Shown: positions 6,862-62,565, counted from the first letter of the stretch. The stretch: DNA of 64,000 nucleotides from Octopus vulgaris (GCA_951406725.2 OX597837.1:14570001-14634000); one strand, 5' to 3'. Notes: generated from the letters alone by a model not told the origin. Numbers and translations are program-made.

Positions 6862-7054
6862 ATGTACGCGTTTCACTCCACGTGTATTACACGCACTACT
6901 AATAGTTCCGCGTATATGACAAGTACGTTCATTGGGCGGTCATTATTTTATGAAACCCAGAAGTATAAAATAATCAGCGCCTGACGAACGTACTTGTTAT
7001 GTACTTGAAACTATCAGCAGCGCGTGTAATACATGAGGAGTGAAACGCATACAT
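6862..7054. repeat. ~190-bp fold-back with short loop, containing an inverted pair of hammerhead motifs
   Basis: atgtacgcgtttcactcc...attattttat / ataaaataat...ggagtgaaacgcatacat; starts at the end of a (TA)n tract. Confidence 0.9.
6977..7023 (+). ncRNA. Hammerhead ribozyme motif, type I (cleavage triplet mutated to GCA)
   Basis: gcgc-CTGACGA-acgtac..gtactt-GAAAC-tatca-GCA-gcgc; the mirror copy at 6893-6939 (-) keeps GTA but has core mutations. Confidence 0.7.
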
Positions 7055-7217
7055 TAATATTGGACTCTCATTAGATGGAGGACTCTTCTTCTTGATCATT
7101 TTACGCAGATTAATTTACTATATATATATATATAATACAGATAAGGCGACGAAATTGAAAATATTTGTGTGATGATATGGCAATGCACAGTGTAAGAGAA
7201 CACGTCTTGATGACAAC

Positions 7218-7327
7218 CTGATGAAGTATCACTCTAATATAACCAACAGCAAATGTTGCGTACATTTCCACATGAAATTATTTACGTGCAGCGACGTTAG
7301 AAGCGACGTGGTACTGAAACAATTGTA
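7218..7327 (+). ncRNA. Hammerhead core with long helix-II insert; helix I not recoverable
   Basis: CTGATGA-agtatcac...gtggtact-GAAAC-AATT-GTA; 8-bp helix II with one G.U pair. Confidence 0.65.
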
Positions 7328-7819
7328 ATAAGGAAAGTGTGCTAAATCCCTTTTTTTGCTTTCACAAGTGGATTTCACTCTGCGTAAGACTCACACATTG
7401 CTTTCATCAGTCACTTTCCTGGACTTCTTCTACCAAAGGACTTTCAATTCTCCTCGTGGTTTCCGTTTGAGGATTTAGGTAGCCAGGAGTTCGGGTTGAG
7501 TGCTACATCGTAAGATATATACATACATACATATATACATACATACTTACAAACATACATCGAGGCATATACATACATGCATTCATATGTATATGTAAAT
7601 CCACAAAAACACACACTGCTTGTGCACGCACATACACACTCACATTATAAGACACCTACACCTATATACACATATAAACGCACACATCATATCTGGCGTG
7701 CATACTCCAGTGAGACAAAAATAGTTTCTTGCTCATGTTCAAAAGGCTTGCTGTGGTTCGGTTTATATATGGAGCTATTGTTCGTGAATTGTGCATTGAT
7801 CTATCGGAGTAAATGAAAG

Positions 7820-8480
7820 GTTTTTCAAATATCGGAAAAATTTCTGTTTTCTGTGGGTAAGAAATATATGCGTCCAGAATAGCTGTTAAGGAGTGGTGTT
7901 CAGCGAATCGAATTTTGAAGCGTTTGGTTGTAAATAAATTGTAAAGTCTTTTTATTAATAGTATATGATTTGATCAAGGAAAGGCTGGTTGTATTTAATT
8001 TATTGGATTTTTTTTTGTTTTTCAAATCCCAAATGAATTTAGATAATGAAGTATCATTAATTACATTTTGGTTATGGAACATGTGGATTGTATCAAAATT
8101 TTGAGGCTTGCAACATGAGTCCAATATATATCCGAGATATTATTTTCTATCGTTGCGAGGTATACAAAAACTTTAACATTAGTTATTAGGATTGATGTAC
8201 AAAACTACGTATAGATGGATACAGCTTGTAGTGGTTGAAATGAGCAAGGCTTTGTGCAAAATTGGGTTTAGTTGAAAATGGGACTTCACTATTGTTTGAA
8301 AATATTTTATAGAATGATTCAATAAATGACTTCCTCTTTTCCTGACCCTAGAAACGCCAATTTTTTTAAATTTCCATCCATATACGAGTTACTTCTTTTA
8401 TTCAATTTCTCCGTCGACAGCTAAATACATTCCACATGCACAGAATTTTGGATCTCATTCTTCAACACGCTACGCCAGAT
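7820..8480 (-). pseudogene. Penelope-like element GIY-YIG endonuclease remnant
   Basis: The minus strand gives, across frameshifts, FVYLATI...YIGL...NDTSLSKFIWDLK...LYNLFTTKRFKI, matching the Penelope-type endonuclease pattern (YIG; T.LSKYIW.LK; decayed CxLC). Confidence 0.75.
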
Positions 8481-8717
8481 ATTACTTTACTATATACATT
8501 CATATACATACATGCATAAATAAGTTTATACATATACATACACACACACACAAACACATACACATGCATACAACCATACATACATACATATATATATATA
8601 TATATATATATATATATATATATATATATATATATATATATATATATATATATATATATATATATATATATATATATATATATATATACGAGAAAGAAGC
8701 AACAAGAATGGATTAGT

Positions 8718-58640: not shown

Positions 58641-59835
58641 ATATATATATATATATATATATATATATATATATATATATATATATATATATATATATGT
58701 ATGTATATATGTATATATATATATATATATATATATATATATATGTATATATATATATATATATATATATATATATATACATATATACATACATATATAT
58801 ATATAAATATATATATATATATATATATATATGTATATATATATATATATATATATATATATATATATATATATATATATATATATATATATGTATATAT
58901 ATATATATATATATATATATATATATATATATATATATATATATATATATATATATACAAAATTTGCGCGGTTGGCGTACATCGATGGCTAATACGTAAG
59001 TCGAGGTAAATCTTACTGTTCATAAACACAGAATATATATATACATATATATATATACATACATATATATATATATATATATATATACATATACATATAC
59101 TTATACATAAACATATATATATATATATATGTGTGTGTGTGTGTGTGTGTGTGTGTGTGTGTGTGTGTGTATATGTATAAACATATATATATATATATAT
59201 GTATGTATGTATGTATGTGAAATAAACTTTTAATATGTCTGCTTGGTGGTTTCTGTTACGTCACATAAACGTTTCTATATTTGTCTCGCAATAAAGACAG
59301 ATATTTGATCTGTTATCTGTTTGTTGTTTCTAAATTCAACCCAAACCCTGGCAACTGTTTGTTCGTTCCACCTACTCGTACGGGATGAGACGAGTGCAAT
59401 GACACGCAAAGGGGGAGCCACTGTGCAGTCGTCCACATTGGTAAAAATAGCAGCCGATTCCCCTCAAATCGTATCAATGAAACGAGAGACACATTGGATG
59501 AGGCAGAGCCAGAAGAATTCACTAAAAGTAAGGATCCAACAACACGTTGGTCCTGTGTTTGTTTGATCCGAGCTGACCTTTGAAGTTGAACAACACGAGC
59601 AACAGTAATTGGACAATAGTAATAATAATAACCACACAAAAGCTGAGAACAGAAGGGAATTTCGATGGACTTTCGGTCACCTAGAAATAGCAGTTGCACC
59701 CACATAAAATCATAGATTGCTGTCCCAAATAGGCACACGCGCGCGCGCGTGTGTGTGTGTGTGTGTGTGTGTGTGCGTGTGTGTGTGTAGAAATATATAG
59801 ATATTAAAAAAAAGAATATATATATCTCTTTGCTC

Positions 59836-60260
59836 TTACTCTTTTACTTGTTTCAGTCATTTGACTGCGACCATGCTGGAGCACCGCCTTTAGTCGAGCA
59901 AATCGACCCCGGGACTTATTCTTTGTAAGCCCAGTACTTATTCTATCGGTCGTCTCTTTTGCCGAACCGCTAAGTGACGGGGACGTAAACACACTAGCAT
60001 CGGTTGTCAAGCAATGCTAGGGGGATAAACACAGACACACAAACACACACATACATATATATATATATATATATATATATATATATATATATATATATAT
60101 ATATACGACGGGCTTCTTTCAGTTTCCGCTTACCAAATCCACTCACAAGGCATTGGTCGGACCGGGGCTACAGCAGAAGACACTTGCCCAAGATGCCAGG
60201 CAGTGGGACTGAATCCGGAACGATGTAGTTGGTTAGCAAGCTACTTACCACACAGCTACT
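59836..60260 (-). mobile_element. Full-length SINE family C with internal (TA)n
   Basis: Head, CORE-like region, microsatellite and tail are all present. Confidence 0.92.
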
Positions 60261-60261
60261 A

Positions 60262-60660
60262 CGGATGATCAATGTCTGCTTTTGGGTGGTGCATGTTCTT
60301 AGATGTTAGTAGTTTTCTTTTCCAGTCCAGGTGTTGGAGCTCGTAGGATTCCAATTAACGATGCTAGGATGTTAATGACTTCGATGCGATTTTTCGAATT
60401 GAGTTCAGTTTTCAGTATGATTCTTATTCTCCTGTAGTACTCCGTTCTTATTTTTTCCTTCATGGTAGCGTGTTGTATGCCATCTCATTCGTTCATCCCC
60501 AGGTATTTATAGCTTCCTTGTGGGTCAAAGTCCTTGATGGTAGTGTCAGTATCTAATTTAATGGAAGCTGTTTGCTTGAGTTTGCCTCTTACAAAAGCTG
60601 CTTTAGCACACTTGTCGAGGCCCAAACTTATCCCGATGTCATTGCTAAACTCTTTAACGC
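60262..60660 (-). mobile_element. R4/Dong-like LINE reverse transcriptase remnant
   Basis: Minus: VKEFSNDIGISLGLDKCAK...GK...YKYLGMNE*...MKEKIRTEYYRRIRIILKTELNSKNRI...KLLTSKNMHHPKAD; contains a stop codon and a deletion. Confidence 0.85.
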
Positions 60661-62530
60661 CATGGGATTTGAGTGGGTTAACGGAACCTGCATAACTGGA
60701 CCTTTTCCAGACTGTTTTTCTTCTGAAGGTGGACCTATAAAACTTTTCGCATTATCTGAAGCTTTCTACTTTTTCTCTTTTTACTTTCTTTGATATGTGT
60801 GTATATATATATATAGCCTAGCAAATTATTTGGTCTATAAATGTGTTTTAAAACTGCACCGCTTACATCACGAAAGTGCCAAATTTAAAAACATTTTTTC
60901 TCAATTCGCTTTTCGTATCTACTTCCTTGTTGCGTCGACATCTTCGTCGCCCAACCAAGTCACTGGCACATTTTTCACTGCAACTGTTTGAAGGTTAGTT
61001 CACAGCGAGCTTTTTACGTACGAACATAAGGTTCTCTTGTACTCATGTTGACTGCCTTTGATCTCTTGAAATCGGTCGTCCATCGTTTTTATCTTTGGTT
61101 ACTTCCCAGTTCCATTCCTACGTCACTTTACGACTTTAAATCTTTTATTGTCAACTTTCCAGAATTATTATTACATTTTTATTATCTTTTTTCCCTTCTT
61201 AAAAGTTAGTTCTGACTATTTTGCATACGCTTTACACCATAATCTATTTCAGTGTATGTACATTTGTGATATAAATTAATGGAAAAAAGCTTCCTGCTAT
61301 TAAGATTAGATTCTATTTTGGACGTATTGTTATAAAAGCGGATGATCACTAGTTAATGAAGATTTAGCGTTTATAAACTTATATGTATAGTTACACACAT
61401 GTACACACGTACTCACACACACGAATACATACCTATATATATTTCATATTTCATATATGTATATATACACACATATATACACATATATATATATATATAT
61501 ACATACATATACACACATATATACAGATAGAAACATATATATACACACACGCGCGCACACACAGAGATATGCGTATGTACAAATACATATACGTATACAC
61601 AAATCAAAGTATGGGATGAGAAATAAACGTATTGTTGAGTCTGAGATCATTCTCTCGTATGTATACTGACTCAGTTACCTGCCTACGTACTTTATCATAG
61701 GAATATGTGGAGAAGATATGTACATTTCGAGTCTATTGCATGAACCAGTGTGTTTATCTTGTGCAAGTCAATGAAAATAGAAACTGAAGGACGTTTCTTT
61801 TCAGTGAATTTCCTCAACTGCTCGCTAAACCTTTCACTGTTACAACGAGCAGTCCCTCACTTTTCAGAAAGCTTCAGAAAGTTTCAGAAAGCTTAAACGT
61901 ATGCCTTCTTCGTATAGCGCATTTCTAACTTTGCAGTTGATGGGTTCGTGAGGCATATTTCGCAACCATTCAACAAGTATCACTTTTGAAAGTCCTAACT
62001 GGAAAGGCGTATGCTCCTTCGCTCCTCAGTGCATCGGCCACGTCGCCTCCTTGTCTTATGAAACGTAATGTATGCTTAGGGTTGATTTATATTTTGAGTT
62101 CTGTTTTCTCCCCTTTATGAAACCAAATTTATATACAAATACACACATATATATATATGGTTATATATGTATAAATATAAATCCGTATAATTGTGTATGT
62201 ATATATATATACAGTTGAAATTTACAGAAAAACAAAAAAGGAAAACAGGTGTATGAACGACAAGCATGTGTATTAGTTTCACGCTCGGATTCGAGCCTAC
62301 GCTCTTCAACAGAAAGGAATATATATACACACACACACACACACACACACACACACACACACACACACACACACACACAGATATATATATATATATATAT
62401 ATATATATATATATATATATTTCAATATTTTGAAAAATATATATATATATTTTTCAAAATGTGACCTCGTGTGTACCGTTGCCGATTTTTTTCCTCTGTG
62501 TTCCCTTCTCTGGATCTTTCCTTCTGCAAT

Positions 62531-62565
62531 GTTTCCGACGAAGAGCTCCGCTCGAAACGTTAAAC
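62531..62565 (+). ncRNA. 35-nt minimal hammerhead motif with U4C core
   Basis: gttt-CCGACGA-A-gagc-tcc-gctc-GAAAC-GTT-aaac, inside a ~200-bp cassette embedded in (TA)n. Confidence 0.7.

What the first reader, a model, noticed from the sequence alone, without database searches (positions are those of the whole stretch)
6862..62565. Dense population of Penelope-associated hammerhead ribozyme motifs among the microsatellites
Seen: about a dozen CUGANGA-helixII-GAAAC-helixIII-GUH arrangements. Positions: 6893(-)/6977(+), 7218(+), 8718(-), 12817(+), 31813(+), 31991(-), 47148(-), 47765(+), 50624(-), 62531(+), with decayed copies at ~29708(-), ~30361(+) and possibly ~40326(+). Helix sequences differ between copies but still pair (helix I: ttttag/ctaaaa, tttgt/acaaa, agataa/ttatct, gacac/gtgtt, gttt/aaac), which is natural covariation around a fixed core. 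Established: Penelope-like elements carry type I hammerheads in their terminal repeats, with short palindromic helix III thought to act as dimers. Inference: at least four distinct families of short non-autonomous, ribozyme-bearing elements (retrozyme-like or solo pLTR) colonise (TA)n tracts here. If the window is intronic, sense copies are potential self-cleavage sites in a host pre-mRNA. I cannot tell whether these particular families are already described.
Basis: partly seen in the sequence, partly recalled or inferred. Interest (0 to 1): 0.85.

Follow-up and report, generated by a model that had tools for sequence, protein, structure and literature searches.

The report
Penelope-element hammerheads litter an octopus-like genome
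These self-cutting-RNA (hammerhead) motifs are real, but they are the leftover tail ends of known Penelope-like jumping genes and their small protein-free passengers; this window is not clearly denser than the rest of the genome, which likely holds about 100,000 such motifs, many with an unusually long second arm.

Summary
Real, and of a known kind. One intact motif was missed (58426-). The scan gave 8 hits against 0.1 in shuffles.

8802(-) is the truncated 3' end of an autonomous Hydra-clade Penelope-like element (PLE), a clade already described in Octopus with (TA)n targeting and hammerheads. 50664(-) belongs to a Poseidon-type element. 47186 and 62535 are short non-autonomous elements with fixed 5' ends. 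58426 is a truncated copy of a young 493-nt tandem retrozyme whose back-to-back arms end one short, one long (17 of 18 insertions), the PLE tail signature.

Eighty evenly spaced 10-kb samples give about 48 motifs/Mb (CI 30-70), roughly 135,000 genome-wide. The window is only borderline richer (P 0.03-0.07), and its 60 kb of flanks have none.

What differs from print: the helix II spacer is 45-98 nt in 15 of 28 motifs (at most about 26 nt in published Hydra motifs), and tails are 60-117 nt.

Cleavage, expression and intronic position are untested or unresolved. The scan noted these features before on other windows of this genome.

The parts
6864..7118 (.). Family H: back-to-back inverted pair (arm 6864-6950 minus, arm 6966-7118 plus) between (TA)n tracts; Hydra-type helix III; both hammerheads broken
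   Evidence: 36 candidates in the genome search
7209..7336 (+). Family G hammerhead, core intact (C3 7218), 91-nt helix II spacer, palindrome ACAAUUGU, helix I not formed; old family (other copies 70-85% identical)
8689..9082 (-). Family A: 5'-truncated 3' end of an autonomous Hydra-clade PLE between two (TA)n tracts; intact hammerhead 8715-8811 (C3 8802, predicted cut after 8724), 60-nt helix II spacer; ends 35 nt past the cut site
   Evidence: 1180 candidates, 26 of the listed matches 100% identical
12815..12937 (+). Family F hammerhead, intact (C3 12824), 86-nt helix II spacer, palindrome ACGAUCGU; old family (68-86% to other copies), parent element not found
29686..29760 (-). Decayed minimal-hammerhead remnant (5' box lost)
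30356..30430 (+). Decayed minimal-hammerhead remnant
31126..31338 (-). Decayed reverse-transcriptase fragment, 39% identical over 71 aa to the family A protein
31810..31878 (+). Family B relative, U4C core (C3 31819), 6-bp helix I, helix III ACUCAGAGU
31985..32082 (-). Family J hammerhead, core intact (C3 32073), 61-nt helix II spacer, 2-bp helix I in this copy
   Evidence: 686 candidates
47116..47330 (.). Family I: about 165-nt non-autonomous element inserted as a fold-back pair (short arm minus, long tailed arm plus); fixed 5' end at the start of helix I; U4C common; neither arm intact in this copy
   Evidence: 801 candidates, 7 hits in 800 kb
47677..47903 (.). Family B fold-back pair; plus arm has an intact core (C3 47767) but is truncated through helix I; a related copy (L044) is joined to Hydra-type RT fragments
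   Evidence: 1448 candidates
50586..50730 (-). Family C: 3' end of a Penelope/Poseidon-type element; intact minimal hammerhead (C3 50664, helix III reduced to ACGU, GUU triplet)
   Evidence: 11 hits in 800 kb
58096..58454 (-).
62455..62664 (+). Family D: about 215-nt short element with a fixed 5' end, followed by (TA)n; minimal hammerhead with U4C core (C3 62535)
   Evidence: 11 hits in 800 kb

Best explanation
The motifs are type I hammerheads at the 3' ends of Penelope-like retroelements and their non-coding passengers, and they likely pile up because reverse transcription starts just downstream of the ribozyme, so even the shortest truncated copy keeps it. Shown: family A is the end of a Hydra-clade element and family C continues into a Poseidon-type endonuclease; copies end at two fixed points 3' of the predicted cut site, not at it; two-armed insertions carry one short and one long end against (TA)n. 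Inferred: the element's GIY-YIG endonuclease nicks both strands of a (TA)n tract, and each end primes reverse transcription from one of two internal start sites, giving back-to-back arms and a tail on one of them. Short elements (I, D) and the 493-nt retrozyme (E) would borrow this machinery. The ribozyme is predicted to act on the element's own RNA as a dimer through its palindromic helix III, cutting tandem transcripts to unit length; most lone genomic copies are likely passive and decaying.
For: Family A: L149 and L143 hold a 941-984-codon RT + GIY-YIG frame between two direct hammerhead repeats about 4.65 kb apart (L149's frame stops early near the C-terminus). L143 and L144 show RWK, DKT, CxCX5C, CxxC and CxH, the Hydra features listed in PMC8557442. 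GIY-YIG Pfam hit E=9e-5.

Family A ends fall at +35 or about +152 from the cut site; the 9 loci with both arms detected carry one of each (two long ends were cut short by indels in my matcher).

Family E: of 22 insertions examined, 18 are two-armed, and 17 of these have one short end (+102 to +134) and one long end (+229 to +239); one end was unresolved; all resolved outer ends abut (TA)n. Two internal RT start sites producing the tail were shown in vitro for an anole Poseidon (PMC11167929).

Helix III is unstable as a hairpin (+2.1 to +2.4 kcal/mol) but stable as a duplex (-4.9 to -11.1) for the 8-9-nt palindromes. Family I has the same layout as published Hydra-2_aMil. Solo and inverted-pair hammerheads from truncated PLEs are described in PMC4209133.
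Against: No autonomous partner was found for families D, E, F, G, H, I or J; their link to PLEs rests on ends, targets and ribozyme layout. Clade assignment rests on motifs and by-eye comparison, with no tree. The full ORFs gave no Pfam hit. In predicted folds only E forms both helix I and the intermolecular helix III as its dimer minimum; A, G, J, C and D do not. Published activity of such motifs is low or protein-dependent, and in the anole element cleavage was not needed for insertion in vitro. E arrays were the top hits of two searches, so they are the youngest copies.
Confidence: 0.85

Rival explanations
1. All motifs are short non-autonomous retrozyme-like elements spreading through circular RNA. 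For the tandem family E, each insertion would be copied round and round from one RNA circle.
For: Family E is a non-coding 493-nt tandem with a hammerhead in each unit. Units differ by 2.6 substitutions/kb within insertions against 7.4 between. Some substitutions run through all covering units of one insertion, in both arms (L228, L213, L229, and the 385T pair L220/L217). A second 588-nt tandem family turned up in the sample (L083). Families I and D have fixed 5' ends.
Against: Families A and C continue into protein-coding PLE bodies. No tandem units were seen for B, F, G, H, I or J in the loci fetched. Several E arrays are mixed (39A in part of L211, 473T in 7 of 10 full units of L221, 227T in two units of L214 four units apart), which fits multimeric or switched templates as well as a single circle. 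No circle was observed.
Confidence: 0.1
2. The window lies in an intron, and sense-strand hammerheads cut the host pre-mRNA, alone or by pairing in trans through shared palindromes, as a regulatory or selected feature of this locus.
For: Nine intact cores in 64 kb. Families A, G and J share the palindrome ACAAUUGU, so heterodimers are possible on paper. E's helix III is marginally stable as a monomer (-0.1 kcal/mol).
Against: No strand bias (5 plus, 4 minus). Density is near genome background. Copies are truncated or decaying like neutral insertions. Lone minimal hammerheads showed no cleavage (PMC4209133), and RNA-seq ends at the cut site were not found in anole (PMC11167929). No host gene was located, which does not exclude a long intron.
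Confidence: 0.04
3. The motifs are chance matches in AT-rich, microsatellite-laden DNA.
For: Relaxed one-mismatch scans give several chance hits per shuffle at low scores (4.7 at score 8 or more). 40326 appears to be one.
Against: 8 against 0.1 in the window and 41 against 2.3 in 800 kb; helix I covariation; motifs sit at a fixed place in repeat families and in both terminal repeats of full-length elements.
Confidence: 0.01

Closest known systems
Hydra-clade PLEs and their hammerheads, including Hydra-1_Obim and Hydra-2_Amil (Craig et al. 2021, PMC8557442; passages and supplement Files S1, S2 and alignment rows seen)
   Same: RWK, DKT, CxCX5C, C-terminal CxxC and CxH; C-terminal GIY-YIG; (TA)n insertion; type I hammerhead near the 3' end with an 8-10-nt palindromic or near-palindromic helix III; inverted truncated arm and a tail at one end.
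   Different: Family A is 4.65 kb (published: generally under 3 kb). The helix II spacer is 60 nt here and 45-98 nt in 15 of 28 motifs; File S2's Hydra rows reach about 26 nt, and only two spike-moss PLE-X motifs reach about 50 nt, flagged as deviating. Tails are 60-117 nt against 30-40. U4C is common in families D and I.
Minimal hammerheads (min-HHR) of metazoan PLEs (Cervera and de la Pena 2014, PMC4209133; parts 1-2 of 4 read)
   Same: Families C and D: no helix III beyond ACGU, 4-5-bp helix I, unpaired base at 9-10.1, mostly solo or in inverted pairs from truncated PLEs.
   Different: Reported counts were about 2,000-9,000 per genome; my sampled estimate is about 135,000 across all types, with a more permissive descriptor.
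Metazoan non-LTR retrozymes (PMC7229834, passages; bioRxiv 10.64898/2026.07.22.740005, parts 1-3 of 5)
   Same: Family E: non-coding tandem units of a few hundred nt, each with a type I hammerhead; proposed non-autonomous partners of PLEs.
   Different: E has a 68-nt helix II spacer and a 12-nt palindrome. Its insertions show inverted arms, two fixed ends and (TA)n targets, which the parts I read do not report. Density here is about 48/Mb for all types against about 4.5/Mb in axolotl (126,247 motifs, 28 Gb); descriptors differ.
Poseidon from Anolis (Frangieh et al. 2024, PMC11167929; parts 1-2 of 4 read)
   Same: Two internal RT start sites downstream of the hammerhead define the tail; both strands are cut and extended; AT-rich target.
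   Different: Shown there for an autonomous Poseidon in vitro; here only inferred from genomic ends, for Hydra-type and non-coding elements, with longer tails.

Membership tests
Type I hammerhead ribozyme | Core CUGANGA ... GAAA with NUH triplet and helices I-III, helix I open | tested here: met
Type I hammerhead ribozyme | Covariation of helices around a fixed core | tested here: met
Type I hammerhead ribozyme | Match to an Rfam hammerhead model | tested here: not met
   0 hits at gathering threshold. This is a library match, not a structural requirement.
Type I hammerhead ribozyme | Self-cleavage at GUH | not testable with these tools
   Only contigs were available in the runs laid
Hydra-clade PLE (family A) | Single RT ORF with C-terminal GIY-YIG between direct pLTRs carrying hammerheads | tested here: met
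Hydra-clade PLE (family A) | RWK, DKT, CxCX5C linker, C-terminal CxxC and CxH; no CX2-5CxxC | tested here: met
   (L143, L144 complete; L149 stops before the last two motifs)
Hydra-clade PLE (family A) | Insertion into (TA)n; inverted truncated arm; tail at one end | tested here: met
Hydra-clade PLE (family A) | Placement in the Hydra clade on an RT tree | not tested
   Reference sequences were visible only as paper text; no tree was built
Neptune PLE (considered for family A) | CX2-5CxxC zinc finger in the RT-EN linker | tested here: not met
   no match in L143, L144 or L149
Penelope/Poseidon PLE (family C) | C-terminal GIY-YIG without a linker zinc finger, upstream of the hammerhead pLTR | tested here: inconclusive
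   L050's frame resembles the PoseidonFr rows by eye and lacks the linker; no Pfam hit; full element not recovered
Non-LTR retrozyme (family E) | Non-coding head-to-tail units, each with a type I hammerhead | tested here: met
   493-nt units, up to 10 full units per arm; the window copy is under one unit
Non-LTR retrozyme (family E) | Expression as circular RNA | not testable with these tools
   No run on record as RNA and no raw reads
Non-LTR retrozyme (other families) | Tandem units | tested here: not met
   Solo or fold-back copies in the loci fetched for A, B, C, F, G, H, I, J; one D-(TA)n-D pair in L185
tRNA-derived SINE with hammerhead (considered for family C) | tRNA-like Pol III head that defines the 5' end | tested here: inconclusive
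   A tRNA-like segment (my reading by eye; ARAGORN found 0 genes in 8 loci) lies about 100 nt upstream of the ribozyme; some copies start or invert there, others run on into the PLE body

The most novel reading that the evidence does not exclude
This genome holds on the order of 100,000 intact-core hammerheads, over half of a long-helix-II, palindrome-dimer form that published descriptors largely miss. They are catalytically active, and because unrelated families share the same helix III palindrome, copies in introns pair in trans and cut host pre-mRNAs at scale.
Probability: 0.1. Interest if true: 0.72.

Novelty: new variant of a known kind. Interest (0 to 1): 0.36.

Why it matters
The class is described, so the locus itself is ordinary. 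Three things have some value for specialists. First, the sampled census suggests a hammerhead density about ten times that reported for axolotl, partly because long-helix-II motifs fall outside short-spacer searches; other genomes may be undercounted too. Second, young autonomous Hydra elements with open frames of about 980 codons, short passengers and a tandem retrozyme share the same two-end footprint, which gives defined RNA templates and start sites for testing how PLE enzymes mobilise retrozymes, a step that the 2026 preprint says remains to be worked out. Third, very abundant families with U4C or A6U cores offer a natural test of whether cleavage is needed for spread.

Tried and rejected
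Rfam: none at gathering threshold; the E-value list was dominated by microsatellite matches to miRNA models. The repeat finder was swamped by microsatellites.

My first label for family A was Neptune; it was dropped after the motif check.

Host gene: the 150 longest of 293 non-repetitive ORFs from the window and 60 kb of flanks were scanned (one of the 150 swapped by hand); none passed a Pfam cut-off. This does not exclude short exons.

Expression: no RNA holder on record was listed. Four runs guessed to be RNA, contigs only, cover family E and family A; they cannot show ends, strand, level or circularity, so they are not used as evidence.

Permuted (type II/III) hammerheads, a lead from e1-9553320: none in the window; 1 in 800 kb against 0-1 in three shuffles, and that one is a type I hit re-read. 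My descriptor may be too narrow.

tblastn of the two PLE proteins over loci L160-L269 found no parent adjoining D, E, F, G or I; Hydra-type RT fragments lie in L209, L210 (H loci) and L242 (J locus), but I did not show they are part of those elements.

(TA)n count does not predict motif count per 10 kb (Spearman 0.16, P=0.16). Lunse et al. 2017 on PLE hammerhead dimers was not held; it may already show long-helix-II variants.

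
Full report
Setting. The window is G000:C24:14570001-14634000 in a 2.80-Gb genome, about 36% GC and full of microsatellites. A protein 70% identical over part of the family A protein is labelled Octopus sinensis, and the RT fragments of L044 resemble Hydra-1_Obim by eye. 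I therefore call the host octopus-like and go no further.

Observation. Descriptor scans found the motifs far above chance. The strict scan gave 5 hits with helix I of at least 4 bp against 0.02 in 400 dinucleotide shuffles. The scored scan gave 8 hits at score 12 or more against 0.1. An intact motif at 58426(-) was missed. Helix I pairs at 86 of 112 positions across 28 distinct motifs, against a permutation mean of 33.5. Family A and its sisters show compensatory changes in helices I and III (six related sequences, so weak as a statistic). Rfam has no match.

Density. Eighty 10-kb stretches spaced across 26 large contigs gave 41 hits at score 11 or more against 2.3 in shuffles. That is 48/Mb, bootstrap 30-70, or about 135,000 (83,000-195,000) genome-wide; at score 14 or more it is about 90,000. 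The window's 125/Mb has P = 0.03-0.07 against resampled blocks, which understates clustering, and the six flanking 10-kb stretches have none. So the window is close to background. For comparison, 126,247 motifs were reported in axolotl (PMC7229834, passages; genome 28.21 Gb per the preprint) and about 9,000 minimal motifs in Xenopus (PMC4209133). The descriptors differ, so the tenfold contrast is indicative only.

Family A (8802). There were 1180 candidates, many identical. Copies share a 3' end and vary in 5' extent, often with an inverted arm. A long copy runs into a GIY-YIG frame. Searching with it returned many copies with open frames up to 984 codons. L143 and L149 have the frame between two direct hammerhead repeats about 4.65 kb apart; L149 carries the window's exact ribozyme and an early stop. 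The protein has RWK, DKT, CxCX5C, CxxC and CxH and lacks CX2-5CxxC, which is the published description of the Hydra clade (PMC8557442). That paper lists an Octopus family, (TA)n insertion, and hammerheads with 8-10-nt palindromic or near-palindromic helix III (supplement). Copies end 35 or about 152 nt past the predicted cut; the nine loci with both arms detected have one of each.

Other families. C (50664) runs upstream, in L050 and L086, into an endonuclease that resembles Poseidon by eye and carries a minimal hammerhead. B (47767, 31819) occurs as fold-back pairs, and a relative is joined to Hydra-type RT pieces. I (47116-47330) is about 165 nt; in loci not fetched for it, 6 of 9 distinct matches begin at the same base at the start of helix I and 3 are shorter, and its layout matches Hydra-2_aMil. 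D (62535) is about 215 nt with a fixed start in most copies seen. F, G, H and J are older families with no parent found. By homology, B, C, D and I had 6, 11, 11 and 7 hits in 800 kb. U4C, common in D and I, is a known natural variant with lower activity in vitro (PMC3088659, passages).

Family E (58426). Its top matches are head-to-tail 493-nt arrays. Of 22 insertions examined, 18 have back-to-back arms, and 17 of these end one short (+102 to +134) and one long (+229 to +239); all resolved outer ends abut (TA)n. This matches the tail made by two internal RT start sites in an anole Poseidon (PMC11167929) and supports the proposal that animal retrozymes ride on PLEs (bioRxiv 10.64898/2026.07.22.740005). 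Units differ by 2.6 substitutions/kb within insertions and 7.4 between; some changes run through both arms, but L211, L214 and L221 are mixed. A single circular template is therefore possible for some insertions, not shown for all. I reached this before consulting the scan's notes, which report the same footprint from other windows.

Architecture. The spacer between the core boxes is 45-98 nt in 15 of 28 distinct motifs. Hydra rows in File S2 reach about 26 nt, two spike-moss motifs reach about 50 nt, and the core-only search in that paper allowed 7-17 nt. The long spacers fold as irregular hairpins; only E is clearly better than shuffles (z -3.7; A, F and J -1.2 to -1.7; G's value came from a mis-cut segment). 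The 8-9-nt helix III is unfavourable as a hairpin and favourable as a duplex, as expected for dimer cleavage (PMC4209133; review PMC6765202, passages). Only E's predicted dimer minimum has both helix I and the intermolecular helix III.

Mechanism. Shown: the anatomy, the parent for A, the fixed ends, the (TA)n targets. Inferred: nicking of both strands of (TA)n, priming at two internal sites 3' of the ribozyme, and 5' truncation, which leaves the ribozyme as the most often retained piece. Untested: cleavage, expression, circles. Lone copies are probably passive.

What was not settled. No host exon was found, so the intron question is open. The sequencing runs were contigs of guessed type and say nothing on ends or level.

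Novelty. Five paper searches bear on print status: hammerhead + Penelope + octopus, hammerhead + Penelope-like + dimer, ribozyme variants + stem II + palindrome, retrozyme + inverted + tail + Penelope, and octopus + Penelope + transposable elements + microsatellite. They turned up no hammerhead census for an octopus; a 2026 Octopus vulgaris repeat annotation has no occurrence of 'ribozyme' or 'hammerhead' in its main text (PMC13282606, passages). Lunse et al. 2017 could not be read, and the supplements of the preprint and of PMC4209133 were not seen; any of these may already show long helix II forms. Verdict: a new variant of a known kind, interest 0.36.

Noticed in passing
L083:860-3547 (G000:C5:21.30 Mb); related copy in L141: A second tandem retrozyme family: 588-nt units, U4C core, long helix II, palindrome ACGUACGU, with an inverted arm.
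   Followed up: partly
L050:1370-1470 and other family C loci (L048, L051, L055, L056, L088, L248): A tRNA-like segment followed by (TAA)n sits in the 3' UTR about 100 nt before the hammerhead; several copies start or invert at a small hairpin just before it. Possibly a PLE-mobilised SINE or an RT stop site.
   Followed up: partly
window 62200-62330 (-); L001, L079, L185: Abundant relative of family D whose first core box reads CUGU(A/U)GA (A6U); 11 hits in 800 kb. The window copy has an internal deletion.
   Followed up: partly
L160:1737-2450: Families E, D and A are stacked one after another in the same (TA)n tract; families B2 and J face each other across a short TA run at window 31905-31925.
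   Followed up: no
L214: Substitution 227T occurs in two units four units apart in a nine-unit arm, hinting at a multimeric template or a local duplication.
   Followed up: no
L044:691-1300: Hydra-type RT fragments joined almost directly to a family B hammerhead: an internally deleted element.
   Followed up: partly
window 19836-20806: Minisatellite, 27 copies of 36 bp at 97% identity.
   Followed up: no
window 37126-37508 / 42876-43258 and 37977-38211 / 38659-38893: Two pairs of long inverted repeats (383 nt at 95%; 235 nt at 92%), not identified.
   Followed up: no
L143:2296-5247: The family A protein has long Asn-rich low-complexity inserts between the RT thumb and the linker, making it about 980 codons against about 700 aa for its database relatives; the 3' UTR is about 1.5 kb with a 102-nt internal repeat.
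   Followed up: no
window 12044 (+) and 30154 (+): Two further core-box matches with weak helix II (score 12.5 in the relaxed scan for 12044); no homologue seen for 30154; probably chance.
   Followed up: partly
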